This document shows, piece after piece, positions 7,097 to 60,660 of a stretch of 64,000 nt of DNA. Location of the stretch: the NCBI GenBank assembly GCA_031261285.1, contig JAISKM010000087.1:4516-68515 (forward strand), read 5' to 3'. This DNA is from Candidatus Symbiothrix sp. (GTDB taxonomy: Bacteria > Bacteroidota > Bacteroidia > Bacteroidales > Azobacteroidaceae). The notes under the pieces were generated by a model, which saw only the letters and a program-made list of their open reading frames with translations, was not told the DNA's origin and made no database searches. A program made the translations under genes and the position numbers. Every line of letters begins with the position of its first letter. The stretch's first letter is position 1.

Positions 7097-7103
7097 GTTA
7101 AAT

Positions 7104-33026: not shown

Positions 33027-34091
33027 ATGAATCAAAGTAAATTGCCAATAATTTTTGACAATATTATTTTTTCCTTGCAACGAGCCGGAGGGGCGTCGGC
33101 TTACTGGTTTGAACTTTGTAAACGGGTAATCGTTGACGAAAGTTTTCAATGTCTGTTTTATGAATACAAAAACGCAGAACACAATATTTGTAAACAACAG
33201 TTGCAAATTCCGAAAGATATACTCATCAAAAAAGAAAATAAGCCAATAATTCTCGAACGATATTCTGATTTGCACAGCAAAACCGGCGGTGTTTTCCATT
33301 CCAGTCATTACCGTGATATATGTTCTACGGCGAAGACAAAAGAAGTGACTACAGTACATGATTTTACATACGAAAAATTATTTTCCGGCTTAAGAAAACA
33401 GGTGCATATTTGGCAAAAAACAAAGGCAATTGCCCATTCCGACATTGTGATATGTGTGTCGGAAAGCACGAAAAAAGATTTGTGCACCATGTATCCACAG
33501 TACCAGAACAAAGACATTCGAGTTGTTTACAATGGCGTTTCTGAAGATTATTATCCGCTGTTTCCGAAGACAGATTCTGCAATCCCTTATATTTTGTGGG
33601 TGGGTGCGCGAAACGATTATAAAAATTTTGATTTTGCCGCAAAATGGGTGAGCTCTTTGAAAGATTACGAATTTTGGATTGTTGGGCAACCTCTGTCACA
33701 TGAAGAACAGTTGTTGCTTGATAAGATGTTACCGAATAGAGTTAAATTCATCGGTTCAGTCACCAATGAAATGTTAAATCAACTATACAATAATGCGGTT
33801 TGCTTCTTGTATCCTTCGTCATACGAAGGGTTTGGTATCCCTGTAATCGAAGCTATGCGTGCCGGTTGTCCTGTTATTACTCTCAACACATCTTCGCTGC
33901 CGGAAGTATGCGGGGATGCGGGATTGATGGCCGAAAAATTGGATACAGATAATTTTACCGAATTATTGAATGATGTTGTAGCCCATCGGGAGCAAATTGT
34001 AGCAAAGGGACTGATACAATCAGCTAAATTTTCGTGGGACAAGTGTTATAGTGAAACCTCAGCCATTTATAAGGAATTAAGCAATGATTAA
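33027..34091 (+). CDS. GT4 glycosyltransferase
   Basis: YPSSYEGFGIPVIEAMRAGCP motif. Confidence 0.9.
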   Translation: MNQSKLPIIFDNIIFSLQRAGGASAYWFELCKRVIVDESFQCLFYEYKNAEHNICKQQLQIPKDILIKKENKPIILERYSDLHSKTGGVFHSSHYRDICSTAKTKEVTTVHDFTYEKLFSGLRKQVHIWQKTKAIAHSDIVICVSESTKKDLCTMYPQYQNKDIRVVYNGVSEDYYPLFPKTDSAIPYILWVGARNDYKNFDFAAKWVSSLKDYEFWIVGQPLSHEEQLLLDKMLPNRVKFIGSVTNEMLNQLYNNAVCFLYPSSYEGFGIPVIEAMRAGCPVITLNTSSLPEVCGDAGLMAEKLDTDNFTELLNDVVAHREQIVAKGLIQSAKFSWDKCYSETSAIYKELSND

Positions 34092-34182
34092 AAACAAATA
34101 CACAATCATCCAGAAAATACGTTTAGCGTATTGCTTAGTACGAACAAAATTACTGTGTCGGCAAGCACGCCTTATCCGTTAA
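34084..34182 (+). pseudogene. 5' stub of the acetyltransferase whose full copy starts at 35207
   Basis: MIKNKYTIIQKIRLAYCLVRTKLLCRQARLIR*; 12 mismatches in 93 nt versus 35213-35305. Confidence 0.8.
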
Positions 34183-34192
34183 AAAATGAGAA

Positions 34193-34390
34193 ATGAAAAA
34201 TAACAAATTGAAAAAACTCAATCCGGAGTTGGCGGTTGAATATCGGGATTTTTTGCGGGAAATCCTTACAAAAATTCAATCGGCACGCTACGAAATGCTC
34301 ATGTCCGTAGGCAAACAAAGGAGAGTTGTCATTTCTTGCATCGTGTCCAAAAACAGAAATGAACCCTCCCTATGCTTCTTCATGGCATGA
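34193..34390 (+). pseudogene. YhcG/DUF1016 N-terminal fragment
   Basis: YRDFLREILTKIQSARYEML...; similarity is lost after about 42 aa. Confidence 0.5.
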
Positions 34391-34436
34391 AATTTTCGCT
34401 CTTCTTTTACAATAAACAAATAATATAACGAAAAAA

Positions 34437-35206
34437 ATGAGAAAGACTAATACCATTGTTGTTCAGGAAACCAACATTTCTATAACCAAGGTTAATGATG
34501 AAGATTATATTTGCCTGACTGATATGGTCAAGGCAAACAAAGAAAGTAGTCGAACAGAAATACTAATTCAGAGTTGGATGCGACGCAAAGACACGATTCT
34601 TTTTTTAGCGGCATGGGAAAGTTTATATAATCCGGTTTTTAATTACATCGAATTCGATGTAATTAAAAATAAAGCCGGCGTTAATAGTTTTATATTGACG
34701 CCAAAAGAATGGAATATCAAAACCAATGCCATTGGTGTTATCGCAAAAACGGGAAGATATGGTGGTACGTATGCGAATGGGGTATAAAACGAGTGTTGAG
34801 CAAAGTGAACTATACATTACATACAGATGCTATAAAAGACTTTGTAATTCCAAAAATAGATGTAGAGCAACAAAAATTATATGTGTATGCCGATGAAGCC
34901 GATTTATTAAATCTTGCTTTGTGGAAATGCACCGCAAAACAATGGCGTGAAGCTAATATTAATCATGCACAAAAGGGATTGAATATTCGGGATGTGGCAA
35001 GCATAAATGAATTAGTTGTGCTTTCAAATATGGAATCATTTAATGTGGAATTGTTAAAAAGAGGTATAGATAAGTCTAAACGTTATGCCTATTTGAGTGA
35101 AATGGCACAAAACCAATTGACGCGTTTAAATGCGATAGATGCAGAAAAAGGTTTTAGAGCGATAGAAACAACACCAAGAGTGAAGGTTCTTAATAATTTT
35201 AAAAGA
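34437..35206 (+). pseudogene. KilA-N domain gene with internal deletion and frameshift
   Basis: DYICLTDM...GRYGGTYA joined near 34775 to frame-shifted EWGIKRVLSKVNYTLHTDAIK...YADEADLLN. Confidence 0.75.
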
Positions 35207-35800
35207 ATGGCAATTAAAAACAAATACTCAATTTTCCAGAAAATACGTTTAGCGTATTTTTTAATGCGAACAAAATTACTGTGCCGGCGAGCACGAATTA
35301 TCCGCTTCCCATTTGAAATAAGAGGGAAAGAATACATTGATTTAGGAACTGATTTGACAACAGGCGTTGGATGCCGGTTAGAAGCGTTTTCTGAAACAGG
35401 CGAAAAAACAATGCACTTCGGGAACAATGTGCAAATAAACGACTATGTGCATATTTGTTCCATGCAAAATGTTACTATAGGCAACAATGTTCTAATCGCC
35501 GGCAAAGTTTATATTTCAGATAATAGTCATGGGAGTTATAAAGGAGACGAGTTTGATACCTCTCCGGAAATAGAACCGATTAAACGTGCATATTATAAAA
35601 ATCCGGTCGTTATTGAAGATAATGTATGGATTGGCGAAGGCGTAGTAATTTTACCGGGCGTTACGCTTGGGAAAGGTTGTATCGTTGGTGCAAATTCTGT
35701 AGTATCTAAAAGTATTCCGCCTAATGTCATTGCCGTTGGAACTCCTGCAAAGCCAATAAAGCGTTTTAATTTTGAAATACAAAAATGGGCAAAAATATGA
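35207..35800 (+). CDS. LbH O-acetyltransferase
   Basis: [17 protein letters not shown] and VGTPAK motifs; in frame with the upstream KilA C-terminal region. Confidence 0.85.
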   Translation: MAIKNKYSIFQKIRLAYFLMRTKLLCRRARIIRFPFEIRGKEYIDLGTDLTTGVGCRLEAFSETGEKTMHFGNNVQINDYVHICSMQNVTIGNNVLIAGKVYISDNSHGSYKGDEFDTSPEIEPIKRAYYKNPVVIEDNVWIGEGVVILPGVTLGKGCIVGANSVVSKSIPPNVIAVGTPAKPIKRFNFEIQKWAKI

Positions 35801-36891
35801 TATTTGAGCAGTTAACACAACAAATAAAACAAACGCATGATGCGTTACAATGCTACGCGGCGAAAGCCATCAATGCCAGTTTGACTGTCAGAAATTGGTT
35901 AATTGGTTATTATATCGTTGAATATGAACAGAATGGTGAAGACAAGGCAATTTATGGTGGACATCTAATGGAAAAAATGGCGAAAAATTTGCTTAGACAA
36001 GGATTGAAAAATGTATCGGCTGCAGAATTGTCGCGATTTAGACAATTTTACTTTGCCTATCCTCAAATTTCTGGGACACTGTCCCAAAAATCATTGCATC
36101 TGCCGGAATCAATTCTTGGGACATTGTCCCAAGAATTAGTAATTGTTGAAAAGGAGAACTTATTAATAGACCCATTAAAGTTGTTATCTAATTTGTCTTT
36201 TTCTCATTTTGCTGAATTGATAAAAATTAATGATCCCCTGAAACGCACATTTTATGAAATAGAATGTATCAGAGGTACATGGGGAGTCAGGGAATTAAGA
36301 AGACAAATCAATTCATTGTTTTTTGAGCGAACCGGACTAAGTAAAAATCCCGGAAAATTAATTGCTCTTGCGCAAACGGATAATGAACATATCAGTATCA
36401 ACGAAATTATAAAATCTCCGTTTTCATTGGATTTTTTAGGATTAAATGCGAGAGATATTGTCCTTGAATCCGATATTGAGGTGGCGATTATGGAAAACAT
36501 ACAACATTTCTTGTTAGAATTAGGAAATGGGTTTTGTTTCGAAGCTCGTCAAAAAAGGATTCTGATAGAAGATGAATATTTTTTCATAGATTTGGTGTTT
36601 TATCACCGGATTTTGCATTGTCATGTGCTTATTGAAATCAAAGCCGATGAATTTAAGCATGAATACATTGGACAGTTGAATGCCTATTTGGAGCATTACA
36701 AACGAAAAGAGATGCAGGTAGGCGATAATCCACCTGTAGGTATTTTACTGGTTACAAACAAAAACAATACATTGGTGGAATATGCCAAAGGCTCAATGGA
36801 TAATCATCTTTTTGTGTCAAAGTATTTATTGGAGCTACCGGCAAAAGAAGTCTTGGAAGCTATTATTGAAAGTGAAATACTACAACATTAA
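35797..36891 (+). CDS. YhcG/DUF1016 PD-(D/E)XK nuclease-domain protein
   Basis: RNWLIGYYIVEYEQ, FCFEARQKR, DLVFYHRILHCHVLIEIK and GQLNAYL motifs. Confidence 0.9.
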   Translation: MIFEQLTQQIKQTHDALQCYAAKAINASLTVRNWLIGYYIVEYEQNGEDKAIYGGHLMEKMAKNLLRQGLKNVSAAELSRFRQFYFAYPQISGTLSQKSLHLPESILGTLSQELVIVEKENLLIDPLKLLSNLSFSHFAELIKINDPLKRTFYEIECIRGTWGVRELRRQINSLFFERTGLSKNPGKLIALAQTDNEHISINEIIKSPFSLDFLGLNARDIVLESDIEVAIMENIQHFLLELGNGFCFEARQKRILIEDEYFFIDLVFYHRILHCHVLIEIKADEFKHEYIGQLNAYLEHYKRKEMQVGDNPPVGILLVTNKNNTLVEYAKGSMDNHLFVSKYLLELPAKEVLEAIIESEILQH

Positions 36892-36914
36892 AAGTTTAAT
36901 TCCGACACTCAAAA

Positions 36915-38060
36915 ATGGACAAAAATATGAATATTTTAATTACCGGAGGTGCCGGATTTATCGGCTCAAACCTCGCATTGGCATTAATAAGTAAAGGCTA
37001 TACGGTGACCGTATTGGACAATTTATCGCCACAAATACACGGCGAAAATCCGAAAGAGACCTCTCCGTTGTACAAATCCATACAAGGGAAAGTTAATTTT
37101 ATAGCGGGTGACGTGACTTCCAAAACAGATTGGGAACGCGCGTTGGTCAATCAAGATGTGGTCGTGCACTTAGCGGCAGAAACCGGTACAGGGCAAAGTA
37201 TGTATGAAATAGAAAAATACACTCGTGTCAATATTGGAGGCACTGCGCTACTATTGGATATTCTCACTAATCAAAAACACACGGTAAAAAAGGTAGTTGT
37301 GGCGTCATCAAGGGCTATTTATGGCGAGGGGAAATACCTGTGTCAAAAATGTGGCGTGGTATATCCAACTGCCCGCAAAGATGAGGATATGAAGCGTGGT
37401 GATTTTGAATGTAAATGTCCTCAATGTAATGGTGAACTGACCTTGCAGGCGACAAGTGAAGACAGCAAAATACATCCTACTTCTGTTTATGGAATTACCA
37501 AACAAAATCAGGAACAGATGGTCATGACTGTTTGCCCCACTATCGGCGTAGCAGGAGTGGCTTTCCGTTATCAAAATGTGTATGGACCGGGGCAGTCATT
37601 GTCAAACCCTTATACCGGAATATTGTCGATATTTTCAACGCAAATAAAAAACAATAACCCAATCAATATCTTTGAAGATGGAAGGGAAACGCGTGATTTT
37701 GTTTATATAGATGACGTTGTTGCAGCTACAGTATTGGGAATAGAACGTGGAGAAGCAAACAATCACGTGTTTAATGTGGGAACGGCCGAAGCAATAGATG
37801 TGATAACTGTAACCGAAGAATTGCAAAAAAACTACGGCGTGCGTGTCCCGACCAACATCTCAGGCAACTATCGCTTAGGAGATATTCGACATAACTATGC
37901 AGACCTGACATTGATAAAGCAGCGATTAGGCTTTGTACCCAAAATAAATTTTGTTGAAGGAATAAAAAAATTCGCAGCATGGGTAAGCGAACAAGCGGTA
38001 CAGGTCGACAAATACACCGAGTCTATTGAAGAATTAAAGTCAAGAGGATTATACAAATGA
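36915..38060 (+). CDS. NAD-dependent epimerase/dehydratase
   Basis: GGAGFIGS and YGITK motifs; CxxC...CxCxxC insert. Confidence 0.88.
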   Translation: MDKNMNILITGGAGFIGSNLALALISKGYTVTVLDNLSPQIHGENPKETSPLYKSIQGKVNFIAGDVTSKTDWERALVNQDVVVHLAAETGTGQSMYEIEKYTRVNIGGTALLLDILTNQKHTVKKVVVASSRAIYGEGKYLCQKCGVVYPTARKDEDMKRGDFECKCPQCNGELTLQATSEDSKIHPTSVYGITKQNQEQMVMTVCPTIGVAGVAFRYQNVYGPGQSLSNPYTGILSIFSTQIKNNNPINIFEDGRETRDFVYIDDVVAATVLGIERGEANNHVFNVGTAEAIDVITVTEELQKNYGVRVPTNISGNYRLGDIRHNYADLTLIKQRLGFVPKINFVEGIKKFAAWVSEQAVQVDKYTESIEELKSRGLYK

Positions 38061-39046
38061 GCATTTTTGCAAATAAAAAAATCCTGTTTTTTTCATCGCA
38101 ATTATTTGGATATGAAATAGATATAAAATCCAAAATGGAAGCATTAGGAGCGAGTGTTGATTATTTTGACGATCGTCCTTCTAATACTTTTTTTACCAAA
38201 GCATGTATTAGGATAAATCCTAAAATCTTGGATAAAAAAATAACTGACTACTATAATAACATTGTTGAAAAAGTCAAGGAGAAAGACTATGATTATATAT
38301 TTTTTATTAAAGGAGAAGCGATTTCTAAGACGATATTGAAGCGGTTAAAACAGGAACATCCTCGTGCCAAAATGATATTGTATTTATGGGATTCTATCCG
38401 CAACAATAGAAATGCACTTAATAATTTGGACTGTTTTGATAAGATATTGTCTTTCGACAAAGACGATGTGCAAAAATATGGATTTGTTTTTAGACCATTG
38501 TTTTACACCGATGCCTACAAAGGTCTTGCAACAGGAACTTCGTTTGTTTACGATGCCCTTTTCGTAGGGACGGTACATAGTGACAGATACCTCTTTATAG
38601 AAAATATTAAGCAACAAATGTCAGCTTTTGCGAAAACTCTGTATACCTATTATTTCTTTCCGAGCATTATTTTATATTACAGAAAAAAAATAGTCGATCG
38701 AACATTCAAAAAAACAAAAAGTTCCAATTTCCAATTTTCTGCTCTTTCAAAAGAAAAATTGCTCACATTGGTAAATCAATCTTTTTGTTTGGTTGACGTC
38801 CAACATCCGAAACAAACCGGATTAACTATGCGTACGATTGAAGCCCTTGGTGCGCACAAAAAATTAATCACAACTAATGAAACTATCAAGGATTATGATT
38901 TCTATAATCCTCATAATATTTTGGTTGTTAACAGAGAAAATCCAATCATAAAAGTAGAGTTTTGGAATACGCCTTATCAGAATATAGAATCCGATATTTA
39001 TAAGAAATATTCCATTGAATCTTGGTTAAATGATATTGTACACTAA
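38057..39046 (+). CDS. Polysaccharide biosynthesis protein (glycosyltransferase-like)
   Basis: LYLWDS, FVGTVHSDR and GLTMRTIEALG motifs; operon context. Confidence 0.6.
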   Translation: MSIFANKKILFFSSQLFGYEIDIKSKMEALGASVDYFDDRPSNTFFTKACIRINPKILDKKITDYYNNIVEKVKEKDYDYIFFIKGEAISKTILKRLKQEHPRAKMILYLWDSIRNNRNALNNLDCFDKILSFDKDDVQKYGFVFRPLFYTDAYKGLATGTSFVYDALFVGTVHSDRYLFIENIKQQMSAFAKTLYTYYFFPSIILYYRKKIVDRTFKKTKSSNFQFSALSKEKLLTLVNQSFCLVDVQHPKQTGLTMRTIEALGAHKKLITTNETIKDYDFYNPHNILVVNRENPIIKVEFWNTPYQNIESDIYKKYSIESWLNDIVH

Positions 39047-39055
39047 TTTAAAATC

Positions 39056-39205
39056 ATGAAACAATTCCTTTTTACCGGTGCCAACGGCTTCCTTGGCAGA
39101 AATATCCAGCTGTTTTTAGAAGCAGACGGCTATGCTATTTCTAAATTGGATATTGCAAATGCCGACATCGAATGTAATATCAGTAACAATGTTGATAACT
39201 TTTAA
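39056..39205 (+). pseudogene. 5' stub of the epimerase whose full copy starts at 41326
   Basis: MKQFLFTGANGFLGRNIQ...DIECNISNNVDNF*; 13 mismatches in 118 nt versus 41363-41480. Confidence 0.82.
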
Positions 39206-39267
39206 ACTATAAAAACGTCCAATGGGTGGTTATAAATTCGCATCAAAAAAACGTAATACTCTCTCTC

Positions 39268-39329
39268 TGCCAAAACAGGGAATGAAACGTTGCCAAAACA
39301 GGGAATGAAATGCTGCCAAAACAGGGAAT
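39268..39329 (+). repeat. 23-bp tandem repeat (2.7 copies) upstream of AAA gene promoter
   Basis: tgccaaaacagggaatgaaaYGY units. Confidence 0.8.
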
Positions 39330-39386
39330 TTGTTTTGTAAATTGCTTATAATATGTTATCTTTGCTCTTTAAAAAAAAGAATATAA

Positions 39387-39968
39387 ATGGAAGAAAAAAA
39401 ATACCTGAATAGAATTTGTGATGACTTGCTACAGCAGTCCTTACAATCTTCCGGCGCAGTGCTTATAGAAGGAGCAAAGTGGTGTGGGAAAACAAGTATG
39501 GCAATGAAAGCTGCAGCAAGTTCGCTGTTTATGCAGGACCCCGACAAATCAAAATCATATCAAAATCTTGCCGACAATGTAACTGCTCATACAGGCACAG
39601 GCAGGATTTCGCGCTTATTGATGCGCCCAATGAGTCTGTACGAATCGTTGGAATCGAACGGCTCTGTTTCACTACAAGATTTATTTGAAGGAAAAACAAA
39701 TATAGAGGCAATGAGTACTTTGAGTATTGAACAAATGGCCTTTGTTATATGTCGTGGTGGCTGGCCCCAATCGGTAAAACAAAAACCCGGTTCAGCATTG
39801 CGCATGGCTGCCAATTATGTTGATGCGGTAATAAACCTTGATGTGCAAAGGGTTGACGGCATAGAGAAAAATCCGGAAAAAGTGCGCGTGTTGCTGCGTT
39901 CCTTAGCACGAAATATAGCCGTTATTGTAATAGCTGTTACAGTAACTGTGGTTACAATTCAAAAATAA
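39387..39968 (+). pseudogene. AAA ATPase (DUF4143 family), internally deleted and 3'-truncated
   Basis: GAKWCGKTS Walker A; Walker B segment missing between YQNLA and DNVTAHTGTGR; ends after LARNI. Confidence 0.75.
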
Positions 39969-40000
39969 TTTGTATCTTTGCAGCGAATAAAAATAGTTGA

Positions 40001-41320
40001 ATGATGTTGAAGTTTTATGACCGCGAAAAAGAAATAGCTCTTTTGGAGAAGATTGAGCAAAAATCGTTGGAATCTGCTCAAATGACTTTCATTGTGGGAC
40101 GGCGACGTATTGGAAAAACGGCTTTGCTTACGAAAACATTTCAGGGAAAGTCGGCATTGTATTTTTTTGTGGAAAAAAAGAACGAGGCTTTACTTTGTGA
40201 AGAATTTGCGAACGAAATTCGCAACAAATTGGCAGTAACTATTTTTGGCGAGATGCGTTCTTTCAAAGAGGTATTTGGTTATTTGATGGAACTTTCGCAA
40301 GCGCGACATTTTACACTGATTATTGATGAATTTCAGGAGTTCCGAAACATTAACGCGTCAATTTACAGCGAAATGCAGAACGTTTGGGATGCCAATAAAG
40401 ATAAAAGTAAAATCAACCTGATTCTTTCTGGCTCGATTTATTCACTGATGAAACAGATTTTTGAAAATTCCAAAGAGCCGCTGTTTGGCAGAGCAACGGC
40501 CAGAATTCATATTAAAGCATTTGATATTGACACAATTAAAGGCATTATGCGTGATTATCGTCCCAATTTTTCAAATGAAGATTTACTGGCATTTTATCTT
40601 TTTACCGGCGGTGTAGCAAAATATGTTGAATTGTTGGCTGATGCGAAAGCATTTACGCTACGCAGCATTGTAAATGAGATTTTTTCGGATAACTCTCTTT
40701 TTCTTGACGAAGGCAAAAATGCCTTGATAGATGAGTTTGGCAAGGATTATGGAAACTATTTTTCAATACTTTCGCTTATTGCTTCGTCCAAAACCTCGCG
40801 CTCGGAAATAGAATCAATTTTGAATATGAATATCGGCGGTTTTTTGGAAAAATTGGAGAATGAATACGGCTTGATTACTAAGGTACGCCCTATTTTGTCG
40901 AAACCTGCTGGTAAAAATGTGAAATATCGAATCAACGACAATTTTCTGAATTTTTGGTTCCGATTTATTTATAAATATCGTGGTGCCGTGGAAACGGAAA
41001 GTTTTGATTATCTGAAAGATATAGTTAATAGAGATTATAAAACTTATAGTGGACAAATTTTGGAGCGGTATTTCCGTGAAAAAATCAGAAAGGAAGAAAA
41101 TCTTTCGGCAATTGGTGCGTATTGGGAAAGCGGCAATCGGAATGAAATTGATATTGTGGCAATTAACGAATATGAGAAGCGCGCCATAATCGCCGAAGTA
41201 AAACGCAATGCTGAAAAAATAAACCTGAATATATTGCAGGAAAAAGCAGAAACACTTGTGAGTAAACAACTCGTGGGCTACACAATAGAATATCGCGGAT
41301 TGTCAATGGAGGAAATGTAA
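40001..41320 (+). CDS. ATPase_2 (archaeal-type) ATPase with DUF234 nuclease-like C-terminus
   Basis: GRRRIGKT, IIDEFQ, DNFLNFWFRF and EIDIVA...EVK motifs. Confidence 0.88.
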   Translation: MMLKFYDREKEIALLEKIEQKSLESAQMTFIVGRRRIGKTALLTKTFQGKSALYFFVEKKNEALLCEEFANEIRNKLAVTIFGEMRSFKEVFGYLMELSQARHFTLIIDEFQEFRNINASIYSEMQNVWDANKDKSKINLILSGSIYSLMKQIFENSKEPLFGRATARIHIKAFDIDTIKGIMRDYRPNFSNEDLLAFYLFTGGVAKYVELLADAKAFTLRSIVNEIFSDNSLFLDEGKNALIDEFGKDYGNYFSILSLIASSKTSRSEIESILNMNIGGFLEKLENEYGLITKVRPILSKPAGKNVKYRINDNFLNFWFRFIYKYRGAVETESFDYLKDIVNRDYKTYSGQILERYFREKIRKEENLSAIGAYWESGNRNEIDIVAINEYEKRAIIAEVKRNAEKINLNILQEKAETLVSKQLVGYTIEYRGLSMEEM

Positions 41321-41325
41321 AAATT

Positions 41326-42255
41326 ATGGGTGATTATAAATTCGCATCAAAAAAATTTAATCTCCTTTTTACCGGTGCAAACGGCTTCCTCGGCAAAAAT
41401 ATCCAGCCGCTTTTAGAAGCAGACGGTTACGTCATTTCTAAGTTAGACATTGCAAATGCCGACATTGAATGTAATATCAGCAAAGAAATCCCCAATTTCA
41501 ATACGCGCCATTATGATCTTGTGCTTCATGCTGCCGGTAAAGCCCACGTTGTGCCGAAAACGGAAGCCAAGAAGCAAGCCTTTTTCGACATCAATTATCA
41601 AGGAACAGTTAATCTGTGTAAGGCATTAGAAAAAATCGGTTTGCCTCAATCTTTTATATTTATTAGCACCGTAGCGGTTTATGGTTGCGATTTTGGCGAA
41701 AACATTACGGAAGAGCATCCATTAAATGGTGATACACCTTACGCGTTAAGCAAAATTCAAGCAGAAAAATACCTGACAGAATGGTGTCGTGAGCACCATG
41801 TGATTCTGTCGATCATTCGTCCATCGTTGATTGCGGGACCAAACCCTCCGGGTAATTTGGGCGACATGATTAAAGGAATAAAAACAGGACGCTATGTAAA
41901 TATTGCCGGCGGTAAAGCAAAGAAAAGTGTGCTGATGGTGCAAGATATTGCTCGTTTAGTGCCTTTGTTGGCTGAAAAGGGAGGTGTCTATAATGTGTGT
42001 GACGATGAACAGCCGACCTTTGCCCAATTAGCCGAATTAATTGCACAACAACTGAATAAAAACTCTCCTTTGAATATTCCCTATTGGTTGGCAAAATCAA
42101 TGGCGTTGGTTGGCGACTGTCTTGGCAAAAAAGCTCCCATCAATTCGTTGAAACTGAAAAAGATAATGGCGTCTTTGACTTTCAACAATGCAAAAGCAAA
42201 AAGAGAGTTGAATTGGCAGCCACTTTCGGTGTTGGATAATTTCAAAATAAAATAA
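41326..42255 (+). CDS. NAD-dependent epimerase/reductase
   Basis: TGANGFLG, HAAGKAH and YALSK motifs. Confidence 0.85.
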   Translation: MGDYKFASKKFNLLFTGANGFLGKNIQPLLEADGYVISKLDIANADIECNISKEIPNFNTRHYDLVLHAAGKAHVVPKTEAKKQAFFDINYQGTVNLCKALEKIGLPQSFIFISTVAVYGCDFGENITEEHPLNGDTPYALSKIQAEKYLTEWCREHHVILSIIRPSLIAGPNPPGNLGDMIKGIKTGRYVNIAGGKAKKSVLMVQDIARLVPLLAEKGGVYNVCDDEQPTFAQLAELIAQQLNKNSPLNIPYWLAKSMALVGDCLGKKAPINSLKLKKIMASLTFNNAKAKRELNWQPLSVLDNFKIK

Positions 42256-42299
42256 ATTTGATGAATCTGTTATTCTTTAAAGATTTTTTATTACCTTTG

Positions 42300-42358
42300 C
42301 ACTGCAAAATTACATGATAATTTGCAGCAACACTGCAAAATTACATGATAATTTGCAG
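42300..42358. repeat. Two copies of a 28-bp palindromic operator-like sequence
   Basis: cactgcaaaattacatgataatttgcag x2, immediately after -7 box 42292-42299. Confidence 0.8.
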
Positions 42359-42381
42359 TATAAAAATTAAAAATAATCGAC

Positions 42382-43521
42382 ATGTATAACAGAAGGCAGG
42401 TTTTGGAAGGGTCTGAAAATGAGAGCGTATTTTTATGGGGTGCGCGGCAAACGGGTAAAAGTACATTGATTAAATCATTGTTTCCTGATGCGTTGATGTT
42501 CGATTTATTGCTCAATAGCGACTATGAAAAGTTGCTAAACAATCCTTCGCTGATTCACGAAATGATTGAAGCAGATACGTCAATTCAAACAGTTGTCATT
42601 GATGAAATACAACTTTTGCCTCAATTGTTGAACGAGATTCATTGGCTGATTGTCAATAAAAACATTCGATTCATAATGAGTGGTTCAAGCACTCGTAAAA
42701 TTTTACGTGCCGGTGTCAATTTATTGGGAGGTAGAGCGTTGCGCTACGAACTATACCCTTTGGTTAGCACTGAAATACCTGATTTTGATTTGTTGAAAGC
42801 GTTAAACAACGGTTTATTGCCACGACTTTACGATGCAACGAATGCAAAAAAAATGTTGTCGGCATATATAGGTAGCTATTTGCGTGATGAAATTGCAGCC
42901 GAGGCACAAGTCAGAAATATGCCTGCTTTCGGACGTTTTCTCGAAACGACGGCTCTCACAAATGGCGAAATGGTCAACTATACAAATATTGCATCTGATA
43001 CAAGTGTAAGTGTGAATACAGTCAAAACGTATTTTCAAATCTTGGAAGAAACACTGTTAGGACGTTATTTGCCGTCATTTCAGAAAAGACCTAAACGGCG
43101 GGTGATTTCTGCACCCAAATTTTATCTGTTTGATGTGGGGGTGGCTAATTCGTTGCTTAACAGAGGGAAAATAGAATTTGGGACGGAGCTTTTTGGCAAA
43201 GCTTTTGAACATTTCATTTATCAGGAAATTTATGCCCACAGTCGCTATTCCGACAGCAATTACCCGATTTATTATTGGCGGACAGCCTCGCAATTAGAAA
43301 TTGATTTTGTGCTCGGCGACCATGAAGTAGCGATAGAAGTGAAATCCACCACGCAAGCCAACCCGCACCATTTGAAGGGACTAAAAGCATTTGCCGAAGA
43401 ATACAATGTAAAGCATAAAATACTGATTTCCAACGACCCTCATCCACGTTTGGTCGACGGTATAATGATTTATCCGTGGAATGTTTTTTTACAAAAACTG
43501 TGGGCAGGTGAAATAATTTAA
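42382..43521 (+). CDS. AAA_14 ATPase with DUF4143 domain
   Basis: GARQTGKS, IDEIQ, PKFYLFDVG and EIDF...IEVKS motifs. Confidence 0.9.
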   Translation: MYNRRQVLEGSENESVFLWGARQTGKSTLIKSLFPDALMFDLLLNSDYEKLLNNPSLIHEMIEADTSIQTVVIDEIQLLPQLLNEIHWLIVNKNIRFIMSGSSTRKILRAGVNLLGGRALRYELYPLVSTEIPDFDLLKALNNGLLPRLYDATNAKKMLSAYIGSYLRDEIAAEAQVRNMPAFGRFLETTALTNGEMVNYTNIASDTSVSVNTVKTYFQILEETLLGRYLPSFQKRPKRRVISAPKFYLFDVGVANSLLNRGKIEFGTELFGKAFEHFIYQEIYAHSRYSDSNYPIYYWRTASQLEIDFVLGDHEVAIEVKSTTQANPHHLKGLKAFAEEYNVKHKILISNDPHPRLVDGIMIYPWNVFLQKLWAGEII

Positions 43522-43590
43522 TATACGCACACTTTAAAGTGCTATTTTTGATATAAATTGCACAATATTTAATACAATTTTTTTATACCT

Positions 43591-44934
43591 GTGATGCAAA
43601 CACCCGGAGTTTATAGCGTTGAAAAGAACGCATTCCCTAATTCTGTTGTAGAAGTGGCAACCGCCGTTCCTGCCTTCATCGGTTATACCGAAAAAGCCCT
43701 CAATGGGGACAAATCCTTGCTCAATAAGCCTTTCCGAATTACTTCCATAGCGGAATTTCGTGCCTGTTTTGGCGAAGCGCCTCGACCTAAATTTAGCTTC
43801 GAAGCGTTGGCAGATGGAATTTATGTCCTCAAACGGGTCGATTCTTTTACACTGTATTACAACATGTTGCTGTTTTATGCGAACGGTGGTGGTCCCTGCT
43901 ACATTGTTTCTGTAGGCGACTATACGAGCGATGACATTGACAAGGCAAAATTGCAAGCCGGTATTGACACACTTGTAAAAGAGCAGGAGCCGACTTTATT
44001 AGTGATACCCGAAGCGGTGAACCTCAAGGCAAGTAAGGATTGTTACGCTTTACAACGAGCGATGTTAGCGCATTGCGGAAGTGTCATGAAAAATCGTTTC
44101 GCCATATTGGATATTTACGATGGAGCAAAAGATAGCAAAGGTCATCAGGGAGATGTGATAAACGCATTTCGCGAACAGGTAGGAAATGAGTTTCTTGATT
44201 ATGGTGCAGCTTATTATCCCTGGATCAATACTTCTATCGTGCAGGAAAAGGAACTCAGTTTTCAGAATTTGGATATTGTCACGCAGAATGGTTTGTTGAC
44301 GGATGAATTAAGTCCGCTTTATGCTCGAATTATCGGAGAGATGCGTTTTATGCTCAATTTGCTTCCCATATCAGCCGCCATGGCAGGTGTTTACGCCTTG
44401 ACTGACAGTACAAAAGGCGTATGGAAAGCTCCAACTAATGTCGGTATTGCGAAGGCTGTTAGTCCGGCGGTCAGTATTTTGCACGAAGCGCAAGAAGAGT
44501 TGAATGTGTCTGTCAGCGGCAAATCTGTCAATGTCATCCGTTCTTTTATCAGTGAAGGAATAATAATTGGGGGAGCGCGCACTTTGGACGGCAACTCCTT
44601 GAATTGGAGGTATATAAATGTACGCCGCACGATGATTATGTTGGAAGAATCGATTAAGAACGCTTTGAAAGCATACGTTTTTGAGCCGAATGTTGCCACT
44701 ACATGGGTAAACGTGAAAGGTATGATTTCCAACTTTCTTAATGGAATATGGAAGCGTGGAGGGTTAGCAGGTGATAAGCCTGACAATGCGTATCGCGTAC
44801 ACGTGGGGTTGGGTGAAACAATGACATCCACAGACTATCTCGAAGGCATCATGCGTATTACTGTCTTGGTGGCACTTGTTCGTCCAGCAGAATTTATCGA
44901 GATTACCTTCCAACAACAAATGCAGAAAAGTTAA
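43591..44934 (+). CDS. Contractile tail sheath protein (eCIS Afp2/3-like), orphan
   Basis: TPGVYSVEKNAFPNSVVEVATAVPAFIGYTE, GAAYYPW, WRYINVRR and RPAEFIEITFQQ motifs. Confidence 0.88.
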   Translation: MMQTPGVYSVEKNAFPNSVVEVATAVPAFIGYTEKALNGDKSLLNKPFRITSIAEFRACFGEAPRPKFSFEALADGIYVLKRVDSFTLYYNMLLFYANGGGPCYIVSVGDYTSDDIDKAKLQAGIDTLVKEQEPTLLVIPEAVNLKASKDCYALQRAMLAHCGSVMKNRFAILDIYDGAKDSKGHQGDVINAFREQVGNEFLDYGAAYYPWINTSIVQEKELSFQNLDIVTQNGLLTDELSPLYARIIGEMRFMLNLLPISAAMAGVYALTDSTKGVWKAPTNVGIAKAVSPAVSILHEAQEELNVSVSGKSVNVIRSFISEGIIIGGARTLDGNSLNWRYINVRRTMIMLEESIKNALKAYVFEPNVATTWVNVKGMISNFLNGIWKRGGLAGDKPDNAYRVHVGLGETMTSTDYLEGIMRITVLVALVRPAEFIEITFQQQMQKS

Positions 44935-44988
44935 CGTAATTACAAATTAAAAATTTGTATAATTCAAATAAAAACACTATCTTTGTAC

Positions 44989-45273
44989 ATGCCACGCTCA
45001 CAAGACATAAAAGATTTTATCCGCGAACACCAAGCTCTGTTTTGGTATTCGCCCGAAGACAAGTGCGAAACGGTAAGCGACGAACTGCTGGTGGAAACGA
45101 TATTGAATTACGGCGATATGTCTGCCGTAGTAAAATTATTTCGACTTATGGGAATAAAAAAAGTGGCAAAAATATATTTTTCCTCTATCAATCGTAGTGA
45201 AAGAAGTAAAAATAATTACCATGAATTGACATCAAATTATTTCACTTTATTATTTAATCGCTATGCACATTGA
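44989..45273 (+). CDS. Small protein, putative antitoxin partner of the AbiEii-like gene
   Basis: LFWYS...LVETILNYGD motif; overlaps the downstream gene; -7 box at 44978-44985. Confidence 0.6.
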   Translation: MPRSQDIKDFIREHQALFWYSPEDKCETVSDELLVETILNYGDMSAVVKLFRLMGIKKVAKIYFSSINRSERSKNNYHELTSNYFTLLFNRYAH

Positions 45274-45703
45274 GATATTATCAGATAAACAGCAAGAATT
45301 GTTGTCGTTTGTTTCACAATTCAAACGTAGTTTTTATTTGGTTGGAGGCACGTATCCGGTAACTCATCCTGTTAAATTGGATACCATCATTTCGATGCCA
45401 TCCTTGTTGTCGCTGGCGGCAATGAAGGCGTTTGCTTTGGGCAGGCGAACCAAATGGAAAGATTATGTTGATCTTTATTTTTTGTTGAGAGATTCTTTTA
45501 CGGTACAGGAAATTTCTGATGAAGCCGAAAAGATATTTGGAGATCTATTTTCTGAAAAATTGTTTAGGCAACAATTAGCTTTTCACGCAGACATTGATTA
45601 TCGTGAGCAAGTGGATTTCTTGCCGGGCTTTGAAGTCGGTGCAGAAGAAGTAAAAGATTTTTTGATTGATAAGTCGTTAGAACTAAATCTTGGTGTTGCA
45701 TAA
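45263..45703 (+). pseudogene. AbiEii-type nucleotidyltransferase with in-frame internal deletion
   Basis: FYLVGGT directly followed by YPVTHPVK; HRxSxDxD region absent; MKAFALGRR..KDYVDLY retained. Confidence 0.7.
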
Positions 45704-45722
45704 TTTTAAAATAGAAAAAATA

Positions 45723-45788
45723 TAACAACAGTATTTTCAATGGTTATCGACCAAAAAACCACTTAACAACAGTATTTTCAATGGTTAT
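45723..45788. repeat. 25-bp direct repeat x2, operator-like
   Basis: taacaacagtattttcaatggttat at 45723 and 45764, upstream of -7 box 45816-45823. Confidence 0.8.
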
Positions 45789-45844
45789 TTTATTGTTTTA
45801 TCCAAGAAAAATGACTACCTTTGCAGCATGAAAAACAAAGAAAC

Positions 45845-46156
45845 ATGGATTGGCAAAATTTAAGTAATGCAGCTGCAATAGCAGAAATCGGAAAGCGATT
45901 AAAAGCTTACCGCCTGAAGAAAAAACTGACGCAAAAAGATTTGGCTGAACGAGCTGGAATCAGTTTGTTTACAGTGGCGCAAATGGAAAAAGGAAGACCC
46001 GTTTCCATCACTATGTTGCTCCCTGTGCTACGAGTACTGCGTTTGTTGGATAATTTGGAGCAACTTGTGCCCGAAATTGGCATAAGCCCAATAGAACTGA
46101 TGAAACTGAAAGGCAAAACGCCCCAACGAATAAAACCACCTAAAGAGAAATTGTGA
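45845..46156 (+). CDS. XRE HTH antitoxin (HipB-like)
   Basis: LTQKDLAERAGISLFTVAQMEKG; similar to 18477 protein. Confidence 0.85.
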   Translation: MDWQNLSNAAAIAEIGKRLKAYRLKKKLTQKDLAERAGISLFTVAQMEKGRPVSITMLLPVLRVLRLLDNLEQLVPEIGISPIELMKLKGKTPQRIKPPKEKL

Positions 46157-46161
46157 GTTAA

Positions 46162-46236
46162 GTTCGACCCCTTTGGGGTCGCATATTTATAGGGGAGCAT
46201 ATCATCTATAAACATCCTGACCCCGTAGGGGTCGAC
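46162..46236. repeat. Paired REP palindromes between hipB and hipA
   Basis: cgacccctttggggtcg and gaccccgtaggggtc. Confidence 0.75.
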
Positions 46237-46249
46237 TAATTAATAATTG

Positions 46250-47542: not shown

Positions 47543-47621
47543 AATGAAATATAGTGCACTTTTTGCTTGTTTTATAAAATAAAAGCAGTATCTTTGTGCC
47601 GAAAGAGTAATTTATTGCACT

Positions 47622-47828
47622 ATGAAATTTGCTAAACAGATTAAAGAAAGACGTTCTGTGCTCGGAATCAACCAACAAGATTTGGCTGATATTTCCGGTG
47701 TGGGCTTGCGCACGATTAAGCAAATAGAGGTAGGAAAAGGGAATCCGTCTATTAAAACACTTTCGGCAATTTTAGATGTGTTGGGAATGGAATTAGTCAC
47801 AAAAATTAAAACAACATCTGAATTATGA
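47622..47828 (+). CDS. HTH antitoxin (HipB-like)
   Basis: INQQDLADISGVGLRTIKQIEVG; -7 box at 47589-47596. Confidence 0.85.
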   Translation: MKFAKQIKERRSVLGINQQDLADISGVGLRTIKQIEVGKGNPSIKTLSAILDVLGMELVTKIKTTSEL

Positions 47829-49116: not shown

Positions 49117-49143
49117 ATTTATCAGATAAAAAACATAGTGTAA

Positions 49144-58582: not shown

Positions 58583-58657
58583 TAAGTTTTGGCTGGGCTG
58601 ATTCACAGCATGGTGGCTCGGGTACATTCGATCCTTTGGCTGAATAACCGGTTTAAA

Positions 58658-60640: not shown

Positions 60641-60660
60641 TAAACAAATAAAAAAATAGA

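What the first reader, a model, noticed from the sequence alone, without database searches (positions are those of the whole stretch)
39056..42255. 5' stub + cargo + full replacement allele (site 2: epimerase) with a shared 30-nt boundary motif
Same architecture as site 1. The stub MKQFLFTGANG... lies 9 nt after the upstream stop, followed by two AAA-ATPase genes and the full epimerase (13 mismatches in 118 nt, mostly synonymous). The full copy begins with atgggtgattataaattcgcatcaaaaaaa (41326-41355), unrelated to the start of the stub. A copy with one mismatch sits at 39222-39251, just after the stub, so this 30-mer brackets the cargo as a direct repeat and supplies a new N-terminus (MGDYKFASKK). 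It is a candidate recombination or attachment site for a cassette system. Two independent occurrences of the stub/replacement pattern suggest a mechanism.
Basis: partly seen in the sequence, partly recalled or inferred. Interest (0 to 1): 0.75.

Follow-up and report, generated by a model that had tools for sequence, protein, structure and literature searches.

The report
Recombination scar around inserted defence-candidate genes
Two ATPase genes of a suspected anti-phage type sit inside the start of a sugar-epimerase gene in a termite-gut bacterium, leaving a dead 5' stub and a rebuilt working copy; this looks like a footprint of homology-guided recombination, seen next to the same ATPase gene in other genomes, and not a dedicated cassette system with a 30-base docking site.

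Summary

- **Repeats:** The stub repeat H1 (39066-39186) matches H2 (41363-41483) at 107 of 121 bases. The 30-mer A (39222-39251) matches A' (41326-41355) with one mismatch. A' supplies the only usable start codon of the full epimerase.
- **Assembly:** Independent contigs from the source metagenome support both junctions at flank depth.
- **Docking-site idea not supported:** The 30-mer has no real match in three public collections, is absent from site 1, and no recombinase gene lies between 27.7 and 51.3 kb.
- **General pattern supported:** H1 and H2 differ mostly at synonymous sites (pN/pS 0.16), so they are two alleles that diverged as working genes, not a decayed local duplicate.
- **Other genomes:** Direct repeats flank the same ATPase gene in 18 of 50 other loci, against 21 of 155 control genes. 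Where coding, they are gene-end stubs with allele-like divergence, for example a 449-nt Ugd stub with pN/pS 0.15.
- **Second sample:** It holds an uninterrupted site in a related strain and a head-to-tail junction of the 2,297-nt unit.

Best reading: nested, homology-anchored insertion with duplication of defence-candidate genes that carry no integrase.

The parts
38057..39046 (+). Upstream polysaccharide-locus gene (329 aa, no Pfam match). Its stop lies 9 nt before the stub ATG.
   Evidence: A 94%-identical strain in run X2 has this gene followed, at the same 9-nt spacing, by an uninterrupted different epimerase allele.
39056..39205 (+). 5' stub of the epimerase gene (49-aa ORF). Codons 1-44 are epimerase, followed by NNVDNF and a stop.
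   Evidence: The same protein is on an independent 5,020-nt Logan contig.
39066..39186 (+). H1, the left copy of the outer direct repeat (121 nt, 88% identical to H2).
   Evidence: pN/pS against H2 is 0.16.
39187..39221 (+). X, a 35-nt spacer with no homologue in the full gene. It holds the stub's stop codon.
   Evidence: In run X2 the same X follows an H2-type repeat.
39222..39257 (+). A, the left copy of the inner direct repeat (the 30-mer plus 6 nt).
39268..39336 (+). Three tandem 23-nt repeats (TGCCAAAACAGGGAATGAAA..) at the left border of the first ATPase module. Homology with metagenome paralogues starts here.
39387..39968 (+). Remnant of ATPase 1 (AAA_14/DUF4143 type, PADLOC PDC-S01). 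Walker A is kept. It has an internal deletion at 39568/39569 and is cut off at 39923.
   Evidence: Loose ends at 39569 are.
39924..39958 (+). 35-nt palindrome ATTGTAAYnnnnGTTACAGTAACnnnnGTTACAAT. It forms the conserved left end of the ATPase 2 module and is followed by a Bacteroidota-type promoter (TAtcTTTG).
40001..41320 (+). ATPase 2, intact (439 aa): ATPase_2 (PF01637) plus DUF234 (PF03008), PADLOC PDC-S27. In other genomes the module homology runs from 39924 to 41320-41322.
41326..41361 (+). A', the right copy of the inner repeat, 5 nt after the ATPase 2 stop codon. It supplies the ATG and 12 N-terminal codons of the full epimerase.
41363..41483 (+). H2, the right copy of the outer direct repeat.
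41326..42255 (+). Full-length NAD-dependent epimerase/dehydratase (309 aa).
34084..35304 (+). Site 1, with the same layout. The parts in order: a 5' stub of a hexapeptide acetyltransferase (34084-34182); a YhcG 5' fragment (34181-34319); a frameshifted KilA-N-like gene (PDC-S22, from 34437); and the start of the full acetyltransferase (ATG 35207, repeat 35213-35304).
42228..42257 (+). 3' end of the epimerase gene. A 30-nt, 87% match lies at 45692-45721, so this may be a short 3'-end repeat flanking the next insert (third ATPase through the AbiEii fragment).
   Evidence: The evidence is weak (E = 3.5e-5).

Best explanation
The region is a nested recombination scar in a polysaccharide-synthesis operon of a termite-gut Bacteroidota bacterium.

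**What is there.** Small accessory genes with their own promoters sit at the 5' end of the epimerase gene. They are ATPases fused to PD-(D/E)XK nuclease domains, of the PADLOC 'phage defence candidate' types PDC-S01 and PDC-S27. They did not arrive by a site-specific enzyme.

**How they were probably inserted.** I propose recombination anchored in homology with the neighbouring conserved gene. This would be either a single crossover of a circular piece carrying a short gene fragment (Campbell-type insertion with duplication) or a one-sided homologous exchange whose other end joins illegitimately. Either route duplicates the end of the gene:
- one copy stays attached to the intact gene;
- the other copy is left as a stub on the far side of the cargo.

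**The two repeats.**
- The outer repeat H1/H2 (121 nt) is the gene-end duplication.
- The inner repeat A/A' (the '30-mer', 36 nt) is a second, smaller duplication of the same kind. It flanks the ATPase pair and happens to provide an in-frame ATG that keeps the epimerase translatable.
- H1 and H2 are two alleles that diverged as working genes in different lineages. At least one exchange with a diverged strain, ending at the border of homology, was therefore involved.

**Shown.**
- The anatomy and the read support.
- The absence of the 30-mer elsewhere and of any recombinase gene nearby.
- The allele-like divergence of the repeats.
- The recurrence of gene-end repeats around the same module in other genomes.
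- A filled-versus-empty pair (L012 against L031).
- A head-to-tail junction of the unit.

**Inferred.**
- Which of the two recombination routes acted.
- The order of the nested events.
- Any role of the ATPase-nuclease itself.
For: 1. **The arrangement is real.** In run X1 a 5,020-nt contig spans 36000-39659 with one mismatch (none over 38700-39420) and a 654-nt contig spans 41152-41805 exactly. Their depths (10.8 and 9.5) match the flanks at 10-13. Site 1 is spanned in the same way.

2. **The cargo genes are defence candidates.** All hit PADLOC single-gene candidate families: PDC-S01, S27, S02 and S22. DUF234, DUF4143 and DUF1016 are classed as PD-(D/E)XK nucleases (PMC3424549). PDC-S01 and S27 are described as ATPase plus PD-(D/E)XK, still unvalidated (PMC12988326).

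3. **The repeats are alleles.**
 - H1 against H2: pS 0.38, pN 0.06, ratio 0.16, P = 4.5e-4 for synonymous excess.
 - Site 1: ratio 0.36, P = 0.04.
 - Decay of a local duplicate predicts a ratio near 0.5.

4. **The module has sharp limits.** In many genomes its homology starts at window 39924 and ends at 41320-41322. Copies 98.8% identical sit in different contexts and share only 13 nt to the left and about 56 nt to the right.

5. **Direct repeats lie close to both borders of the module more often than expected.**
 - 16 of 44 loci against 5 of 83 shifted windows, P = 2.6e-5.
 - 18 of 50 loci against 21 of 155 neighbouring genes, P = 8e-4.

6. **Where the repeats are coding, they are gene ends with allele-like divergence**.
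 - L031: Ugd 3' end, 449 nt at 87%, ratio 0.15, P = 1e-11.
 - L058: YegS-like 3' end, 120 nt, 4 synonymous and 0 non-synonymous differences.
 - L029: 44 nt directly abutting the module.
 - L045 shows the same.

7. **Other cargo shows the pattern too.**
 - In L014 a Schlafen/AlbA_2 gene lies between Ugd and a Ugd 3' stub.
 - L012 carries a 145-nt repeat of a sequence that is single-copy in L031, a filled-versus-empty pair.

8. **The right-hand repeat begins just after the module's stop codon.** The gap is 5 nt in the window (A'), 7 nt in L058 and 3 nt in L029. This places A/A' in the same class.

9. **Run X2 adds two forms.**
 - A 94%-identical strain has the upstream gene, 9 nt, then an uninterrupted different epimerase allele.
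 - A 436-nt contig reads ATPase 2 end, A', TTTAATC, H2-type repeat, X, A, start of ATPase 1 module. This is a head-to-tail junction of the 2,297-nt unit.
Against: - **The two recombination routes cannot be told apart here.** No microhomology could be assessed, because no donor sequence is known.
- **H1 and H2 could hardly recombine with each other.** They share no identical run longer than 17 nt. The H2-type repeat next to X in run X2 therefore needs an extra event, such as originally identical repeats later overwritten on one side.
- **The X2 junction is weak evidence.** It rests on one low-depth (3.9x) de Bruijn contig. It could be a tandem copy, a circle, or a wrong path through identical repeats.
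- **Part of the repeat excess is not gene-end duplication.** Some loci (L053, L054, L063, L016/L019) have non-coding or microsatellite-like repeats that may be ordinary intergenic repeats. The control genes also include other accessory genes.
- **The borders look too tight for random joining.** Repeats begin 3-7 nt after the stop codon in independent insertions. That hints at something more specific.
- **The origin of A and X is unknown.**
Confidence: 0.6

Rival explanations
1. Element-driven mobility. The ATPase plus PD-(D/E)XK module is itself a selfish mobile unit with defined ends, from the palindrome to the stop codon. Its nuclease, or a trans-acting enzyme that recognises the 35-nt palindrome, would cut target or donor DNA. 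Repair would then produce the variable gene-end duplications.
For: - The left border is sharp and conserved at ATTGTAAC.
- In some independent insertions the right border is the stop codon plus 3-7 nt (W, L029, L058); in L012 the right-hand repeat begins about 51 nt after the stop.
- The family is highly multi-copy in the metagenome, at 30-100x against a 10x flank.
- It carries a nuclease fold (PMC3424549, PMC12988326).
- Repeats are enriched around the module.
Against: - Unrelated cargo shows the same stub pattern: KilA-N-like and YhcG genes at site 1, and a Schlafen-like gene in L014.
- The palindrome overlaps the promoter and is more simply read as an operator.
- Sharp borders between copies 90% identical can also arise from neutral decay of the flanks.
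- No identical (newborn) repeats were seen.
- The repeats are allelic.
Confidence: 0.15
2. The 30-mer is the attachment or recombination site of a dedicated cassette system, acted on by a site-specific recombinase encoded elsewhere.
For: - The 30-mer brackets the cargo as a near-perfect direct repeat.
- A head-to-tail junction of the unit exists in run X2.
Against: - There are no true matches in the metagenome, genome or viral collections.
- The motif is absent from site 1 and from the 80 related loci.
- No recombinase gene was found among the ORFs scanned between 27.7 and 51.3 kb.
- The X2 junction joins at the H repeat (A'-H2-X-A), not at the 30-mer.
- The motif has no marked dyad symmetry.
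Confidence: 0.06
3. Local tandem duplication of the gene start, followed by decay of the stub and later insertion of the cargo. No foreign allele would be involved.
For: The repeats are direct and lie close together. The stub keeps the native start and its spacing from the upstream gene.
Against: - pN/pS is 0.16 at site 2 and 0.15 for the 449-nt L031 pair, against about 0.5 expected if one copy decays freely.
- pS of 0.38 is far above the 0-1 mismatches between the X1 and X2 strains elsewhere.
Confidence: 0.07
4. Metagenome assembly artefact. Two strains would have been joined through the multi-copy ATPase interior, so that the stub and the full gene are not on one chromosome.
For: - The ATPase interior is multi-copy.
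- In X1 it is covered only by short exact unitigs, with gaps at 40010-40360 and 40720-40860.
- No long read spans the unit.
Against: - Both junctions and both flanks have the same depth (9.5-13x) in an independent k=31 assembly.
- The exact unitigs in the interior have the same depth.
- Run X2 independently contains A'-H2 and X-A joined to the same cargo ends.
- Site 1 is spanned by overlapping exact contigs.
Confidence: 0.05

Closest known systems
Campbell-type insertion with duplication and homology-facilitated illegitimate recombination. The latter is from de Vries & Wackernagel 2002 and Prudhomme et al. 2002, listed as refs 67 and 69 in PMC2884548. Those papers were not held, so their content is from my own knowledge.
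   Same: - Foreign DNA enters next to a homologous anchor without any recombinase of its own.
- The exchange ends at the border of homology.
- Repeats of the anchor flank the insert.
- The repeat length is set by the event, not by an enzyme.
   Different: - Those systems were defined experimentally in naturally transformable bacteria, and mostly give deletions or engineered duplications.
- Here the outcome is a natural, recurrent gene-end duplication that keeps the gene intact.
- It is associated with particular accessory gene modules in Bacteroidota.
- The route of DNA entry is unknown.
Genomic islands that integrate into gene ends and carry a replacement end, such as tRNA- or tmRNA-targeting integrative elements with tyrosine recombinases.
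   Same: The cargo sits inside the end of a gene. The gene is restored by an element-borne copy, and the displaced or duplicated end forms a direct repeat.
   Different: - There is no recombinase gene.
- The repeats are long, variable in length (36-449 nt) and diverged (87-97%).
- Targets differ from genome to genome.
Integron gene cassettes.
   Same: Small single-gene units are inserted in the same orientation into an operon. A circular or head-to-tail form is possible.
   Different: - There is no IntI, attI or attC.
- The cargo has its own promoter and operator.
- The bracketing repeat is unique to this locus.
Small variable segments or 'islets' in bacterial genomes (PMC2884548).
   Same: These are short accessory segments at gene borders. 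In that study 10-18% were flanked by direct repeats.
   Different: There the repeats were mostly shorter than 30 bp. Here they are 36-449 nt, made of gene ends, with allele-like divergence.
PADLOC phage defence candidates PDC-S01, S27, S02 and S22.
   Same: The cargo proteins match these HMMs strongly, for example PDC-S27 at 2e-46 and PDC-S02 at 1.5e-120.
   Different: Membership rests on sequence only. Defence activity is unproven for these families (PMC12988326), and ATPase 1 and the KilA-N-like gene are degraded here.

Membership tests
   The 30-mer core gave 4 chance hits in metagenome contigs, 0 in one genome for each of 185,579 species and 0 in viral contigs. It is absent from site 1 and from the 80 related loci.
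   The main ORFs between 27721 and 51337 (about 24) were scanned against Pfam or PADLOC. None is an integrase, resolvase or transposase. The rest of the genome was not available.
   A head-to-tail junction exists in run X2, but it is joined through the H repeat (A'-H2-X-A), not at the 30-mer. It rests on one 3.9x contig. An uninterrupted site exists in a 94%-identical strain.
Transposon / insertion sequence | Transposase gene, terminal inverted repeats, and a short target duplication of fixed length. | tested here: not met
   There is no transposase. The only palindrome lies at one end. Flanking repeats range from 36 to 449 nt and are diverged.
Homology-anchored insertion with duplication (Campbell-type or homology-facilitated illegitimate recombination) | The insert is flanked by direct repeats made of the adjacent homologous gene segment. 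| tested here: met
   Seen for H1/H2, site 1, L031, L014, L058, L029, L045 and L012.
Homology-anchored insertion with duplication (Campbell-type or homology-facilitated illegitimate recombination) | The repeat copies derive from different alleles (donor and recipient), not from local copying. | tested here: met
   pN/pS is 0.16 at site 2, 0.36 at site 1 and 0.15 in L031 (P = 1e-11). L058 has 4 synonymous and 0 non-synonymous differences.
Homology-anchored insertion with duplication (Campbell-type or homology-facilitated illegitimate recombination) | Microhomology at the illegitimate junction, dependence on RecA, and a route of DNA uptake. | not testable with these tools
   No donor sequence is known, and these points need genetics.
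PADLOC PDC-S27 (ATPase_2 + DUF234) | Full-length match to the family HMM and to its Pfam domains. | tested here: met
   PDLC04985 scores 2e-46 over residues 4-422. PF01637 scores 6e-18 and PF03008 scores 1.2e-14.
PADLOC PDC-S27 (ATPase_2 + DUF234) | Protection against phage. | not testable with these tools
   The family is a candidate found by 'guilt by embedding'. Validation is pending (PMC12988326).

The most novel reading that the evidence does not exclude
Single-gene ATPase plus PD-(D/E)XK modules (PDC-S27 and PDC-S01 type, and perhaps YhcG, KilA-N-like and Schlafen-like genes) would form a class of mobile cassettes without an integrase. Each would travel with a short fragment of the neighbouring host gene as a homology arm. 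It would alternate between a circular or tandem form and an integrated form by host recombination, possibly helped by its own nuclease. It would restore the target gene on insertion, which would explain both the high copy number of these genes in Bacteroidota and the gene-end stubs beside them.
Probability: 0.2. Interest if true: 0.75.

Novelty: new variant of a known kind. Interest (0 to 1): 0.45.

Why it matters
[quoted passage not shown] They are scattered through Bacteroidota genomes without recognisable mobile-element machinery, and how they spread is unclear.

This locus and its relatives point to one route. The gene enters by recombination anchored in homology, duplicates the end of a conserved neighbouring gene, keeps that gene working, and leaves a datable allele 'fossil' as a stub.

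If this proves general, three things follow:
- Stubs could be used to find and date such insertions.
- It would explain why polysaccharide operons collect defence and toxin-antitoxin genes.
- The mobility of integrase-free defence genes would become experimentally testable.

For genome annotation, it also warns that short ORFs after operon genes can be displaced gene ends, and that the true start of the neighbouring gene may be supplied by the insert.

Tried and rejected
- **Protein search with the hypothetical 58-aa X2-type stub** returned only the window's own stub, so it was uninformative.
- **Exact-protein look-ups of ATPase 2**, with starts at 40001 and 40004, found no record. Look-ups of the stub and of the upstream gene returned only the source-run contig.
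- **A 76-aa ORF before an AAA_21/RloB pair** in the related locus L006 was tested as a possible stub. No repeat was found.
- **The third weak copy of the 30-mer** at 28741-28776 was rejected as chance, because it lies in frame inside WbsX.
- **The YhcG fragment at site 1** is not a copy of the full YhcG gene at 35785-36891, at DNA or protein level. A simple duplication of acetyltransferase plus YhcG is therefore rejected.
- **No tandem copies of the ATPase 2 module** were seen in any of the 80 loci.
- **The module is rare in viral contigs**, with 1 locus, so phages are not an obvious vector.
- **Other runs from the X2 study** hold none of the sequence.
- **The two 2002 PNAS papers** on illegitimate recombination were not held.
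- **A single import of 35208-39186** from one diverged donor would explain the equal 88% identity at both sites. I could not test it. The exact matches of the X2 strain inside that segment neither support nor exclude it.


Full report
**1. Observation**

The finding is accurate as a description.
- The upstream gene ends at 39046.
- A 49-codon ORF (39056-39205) starts 9 nt later.
- Its bases 39066-39186 (H1) match 41363-41483 (H2) at 107 of 121 positions.
- The 30-mer lies at 39222-39251 (A) and 41326-41355 (A') with one mismatch, or 33 of 36 with the next six bases.
- A 27-nt core allowing three mismatches occurs only at these two places in the window, and in none of 100 shuffles.
- A 75-83% look-alike at 28741-28776 is in-frame coding sequence of a WbsX glycosyltransferase. 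I take it as chance.

The order along the strand is: upstream gene, stub (H1), 35-nt spacer X, A, cargo, A', TTTAATC, H2 plus the rest of the epimerase. Site 1 has the same layout (34087-34178 against 35213-35304, 92 nt at 88%).

**2. Gene content**

The window is a polysaccharide-synthesis operon with Wzy, several glycosyltransferases, epimerases, DegT aminotransferases and hexapeptide acetyltransferases.

*The epimerase.* The full gene (41326-42255) is a complete NAD-dependent epimerase. Its homologues are 297-302 aa and start M-x(1-4)-LLFTGANG, exactly like the stub. The full copy has no start codon other than the ATG of A'. A' therefore does supply the start and a 12-residue extension (MGDYKFASKKFN) seen in none of the eight homologues read.

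*The cargo.*
- The first gene is a remnant of an AAA_14/DUF4143-type ATPase (39387-39968). It has an internal deletion at 39568/39569 and is cut off at 39923.
- The second is an intact ATPase_2 + DUF234 gene (40001-41320).

*PADLOC matches.* Every inserted gene at both sites, and the neighbouring inserts, matches a single-gene 'phage defence candidate' family:

| Gene | Family |
|---|---|
| ATPase 1 remnant and third ATPase (42382-43521) | PDC-S01 |
| ATPase 2 | PDC-S27 |
| YhcG (35785-36891) | PDC-S02 |
| KilA-N-like gene (from 34437) | PDC-S22 |

DUF234, DUF4143 and DUF1016 are classed as PD-(D/E)XK nuclease domains (PMC3424549). PDC-S01 and S27 are described as ATPase plus PD-(D/E)XK candidates without experimental validation (PMC12988326).

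*Other points.*
- None of the ORFs scanned between 27.7 and 51.3 kb is a recombinase or transposase.
- All inserts point the same way as the operon.
- No terminator-like site separates the cargo from the epimerase.
- The operon resumes only at 49144 (Glycos_transf_4). The stretch 42256-49143 is a further 6.9 kb of inserts: the third ATPase, a sheath-like protein, an AbiEii fragment and two HipA-type loci.

**3. Is the arrangement real DNA?**

The sequence comes from a termite-gut metagenome. In an independent k=31 assembly of run X1:
- a 5,020-nt contig covers 36000-39659 with one mismatch (none over 38700-39420), spanning upstream gene, stub, X, A and the start of ATPase 1;
- a 654-nt contig covers 41152-41805 exactly, spanning the end of ATPase 2, A', H2 and the epimerase;
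- both have flank-level depth (10.8 and 9.5, against 10-13).

The ATPase interior is multi-copy in the community (30-100x at 85% identity). It is represented only by short exact unitigs of single-copy depth, with two gaps. The link through the interior therefore rests on the original assembly. Site 1 is covered by overlapping exact contigs. I rate an assembly artefact as unlikely but not excluded.

**4. Test of the 30-mer as a site**

- The 22-nt core gave four hits in 241 million metagenome records, none with flank similarity.
- A codon-degenerate 30-mer gave no hit in one genome for each of 185,579 species.
- The core gave none in viral contigs.
- It is absent from the 80 related loci and from site 1.
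- In the X1 contigs it appears only in its two known contexts.

**5. What the stub and the full copy are to each other**

H1 and H2 differ by 10 synonymous and 6 non-synonymous changes: pS 0.38, pN 0.06, ratio 0.16, P = 4.5e-4 for synonymous excess. Site 1 gives a ratio of 0.36, P = 0.04.

If one copy had decayed freely after a local duplication, the ratio should be about 0.5. The two copies are therefore alleles that diverged while both were parts of working genes in different lineages. They share no identical run longer than 17 nt, so they can hardly recombine with each other now.

**6. The same pattern elsewhere**

Relatives of ATPase 2 were fetched from species-representative genomes (80 loci).

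*Module limits.*
- DNA homology to the window starts at 39924 in many genomes and ends at 41320-41322.
- Position 39924 is the first base of a 35-nt palindrome, ATTGTAACnnnnGTTACAGTAACnnnnGTTACAAT, which precedes a Bacteroidota-type promoter. The right limit is the stop codon.
- Copies 98.8% identical (L012 against L014 and L031) sit in different contexts and share only 13 nt to the left and about 56 nt to the right.

*Flanking repeats.* Direct repeats lie within 400 nt of both module borders in:
- 16 of 44 loci against 5 of 83 shifted control windows (P = 2.6e-5);
- 18 of 50 loci against 21 of 155 neighbouring genes (P = 8e-4).

Some of these repeats are non-coding or microsatellite-like (L053, L054, L063, L016/L019) and may be ordinary intergenic repeats. 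I therefore put most weight on the coding cases.

*Coding cases.* In each, the repeat is the end of the adjacent gene: one copy completes an intact gene and the other is a stub beyond the cargo.

| Locus | Adjacent gene end | Repeat | Divergence |
|---|---|---|---|
| L031 | UDP-glucose dehydrogenase (Ugd), 3' end | 449 nt, 87% | pN/pS 0.15, P = 1e-11 |
| L058 | YegS-like lipid kinase, 3' end | 120 nt | 4 synonymous, 0 non-synonymous |
| L029 | LutB-like gene, 3' end | 44 nt, abutting the module | too short to test |
| L045 | DUF354 gene | about 126 nt compared | ratio 0.24 |

*Further observations.*
- In L014 the cargo between Ugd and its 3' stub is a Schlafen/AlbA_2 gene. The pattern is therefore not tied to one cargo family.
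- L012 carries a 145-nt repeat, the last 45 codons of a DUF4143 gene. It flanks an HTH fragment plus the module, and the same sequence is single-copy in L031. This is a filled-versus-empty pair.
- The right-hand repeat starts 3-7 nt after the module's stop codon in L029 and L058. In the window, A' starts 5 nt after it. By this analogy A/A' is an inner duplication of the same kind, flanking the ATPase pair, and H1/H2 is the outer one.

**7. The second sample**

Run X2 (another study, different host label) holds about a quarter of the region at 2-4x depth, from two strains.

*Uninterrupted site.* In the 94%-identical strain the upstream gene is followed, at the same 9-nt spacing, by ATGAACACACTTCTTTTCACCGGC... 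This is a different epimerase allele that continues for 360 nt without matching X, A or the cargo. It is an uninterrupted version of the site.

*Head-to-tail junction.* In the near-identical strain a 436-nt contig reads 41140-41483 (end of ATPase 2, A', TTTAATC, H2 type), then X, then A, then CGTAAT..CTGCCAAAACAG up to 39278. This is the head-to-tail junction of the 2,297-nt unit.

It could be a tandem copy, a circle, or a wrong path through two identical repeats in a thin graph. Its repeat is H2-type up to the last diagnostic base (39184 C). It therefore cannot come from a crossover between the window's H1 and H2. Either the repeats were once identical (H2/H2) and the left one was later overwritten together with the upstream genes, or the unit exists independently. 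Both X-with-H1 (in X1) and X-with-H2 (in X2) exist in nature.

**8. Mechanism**

*Shown.*
- Accessory gene modules without a recombinase sit at the end of a conserved gene.
- The gene end is present twice, as two alleles.
- The intact copy is kept functional, here by an ATG inside A'.
- The pattern recurs with other genes, other cargo and other genomes.

*Inferred.* Insertion was by recombination anchored in the homology of the conserved gene. Two routes are possible:
- (a) a single crossover of a circle that carries the module plus a gene-end fragment, which by itself yields 'gene end, cargo, gene end';
- (b) a one-sided homologous exchange whose non-homologous end joins illegitimately inside the recipient gene, which leaves the recipient's gene end as a stub.

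Route (a) fits the head-to-tail junction and cases in conserved housekeeping contexts (L058). Route (b) fits polysaccharide loci, where only a few genes are shared between donor and recipient. Later exchanges that stop at the border of homology can replace one repeat copy by another allele.

The nested structure here implies at least two events. I cannot order them, and the origin of X and A is unknown.

**9. Rivals**

- **Dedicated cassette system with the 30-mer as its site.** Largely refuted by sections 2 and 4.
- **Local duplication with decay.** Contradicted by the substitution pattern.
- **Assembly artefact.** Unlikely, as set out in section 3.
- **The module promotes its own movement.** This is the rival I cannot dismiss. 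It has sharp ends, repeats abutting the stop codon, a nuclease domain and a very high copy number. Against it, unrelated cargo shows the same stubs, and the palindrome is more simply an operator.

**10. Comparison with known systems**

- It works like Campbell-type insertion with duplication, or like homology-facilitated illegitimate recombination. The latter is my own knowledge of de Vries & Wackernagel 2002 and Prudhomme et al. 2002, which are cited in PMC2884548 but were not held.
- It looks like gene-end-targeting integrative islands, but it lacks their recombinase and their identical core site.
- It is not an integron or a transposon, because their defining features were tested and not met.
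- Small variable segments flanked by direct repeats are known (PMC2884548), but those repeats were mostly shorter than 30 bp.
- In the papers I searched I found no description of allelic gene-end repeats as a recurrent companion of PDC-S27-type genes. The searches were limited.

**11. Verdict**

The locus is best seen as an ordinary kind of event, a recombination scar, in an unusually clear and nested form. It carries a modestly novel generalisation about how integrase-free defence-candidate genes settle next to conserved genes. Interest is 0.45.

Noticed in passing
window 42256-49143: The polysaccharide operon is interrupted by about 6.9 kb of accessory genes. These are a third AAA_14/DUF4143 ATPase, a protein with phage tail-sheath domains (43591-44934), an AbiEii fragment, and two HTH/HipA-type toxin-antitoxin loci. 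The operon resumes at Glycos_transf_4 (49144). A further HipA gene lies at 18769-20022.
   Followed up: partly
window 42228-42257 and 45692-45721: The last 30 nt of the epimerase gene recur at 87% identity at the end of the AbiEii-fragment ORF. This may be a short 3'-end stub bracketing the third ATPase and its neighbours (E = 3.5e-5 in a 2.5 kb by 2.5 kb comparison).
   Followed up: partly
window 42300-42358: Two perfect 28-nt copies of CACTGCAAAATTACATGATAATTTGCAG, each itself a near-palindrome, lie between the promoter-like TACCTTTG and the start of the third ATPase. This is probably an operator. The first ATPase module has instead three 23-nt tandem repeats (39268-39336), and ATPase 2 has a 35-nt palindrome (39924-39958).
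   Followed up: partly
window 558-601, 1752-1828, 6182-6257, 9186-9220: There are short dispersed repeats with hairpin potential: TGCGGATCAAGTCCGCAATGAC and CGTAGGGGCGAACCCTTGCGGTCGCCC. They look like REP-type intergenic elements.
   Followed up: no
window 7099-7197 and 18018-18114: A block of about 100 nt is repeated at 77-94% identity, upstream of a DegT aminotransferase gene and upstream of a HipA locus. It may be a shared leader or regulatory region.
   Followed up: no
window 58589-62352: Two adjacent paralogous genes (58589-60373 and 60661-62352) share several 73-90% identical segments, including a GDSDxDGxPDAWE-like motif region.
   Followed up: no
L058:7578-10850: In another genome, the leucyl-tRNA synthetase gene next to the ATPase module carries a DUF559 (Vsr-like endonuclease) domain inserted at residues 325-429.
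   Followed up: no
L015, L016, L019 flanks of the module: In three genomes the module is embedded between microsatellite-like arrays of AGTGA-containing units on both sides. These repeats may travel with the module or may be regulatory.
   Followed up: no
window 34199-34312: The 5' fragment of a YhcG/DUF1016 gene at site 1 belongs to a family present at 70-200x depth in both metagenomes, far above the 10x flank. The paralogue homology has sharp borders at 34181/34191 and 34301/34319.
   Followed up: partly
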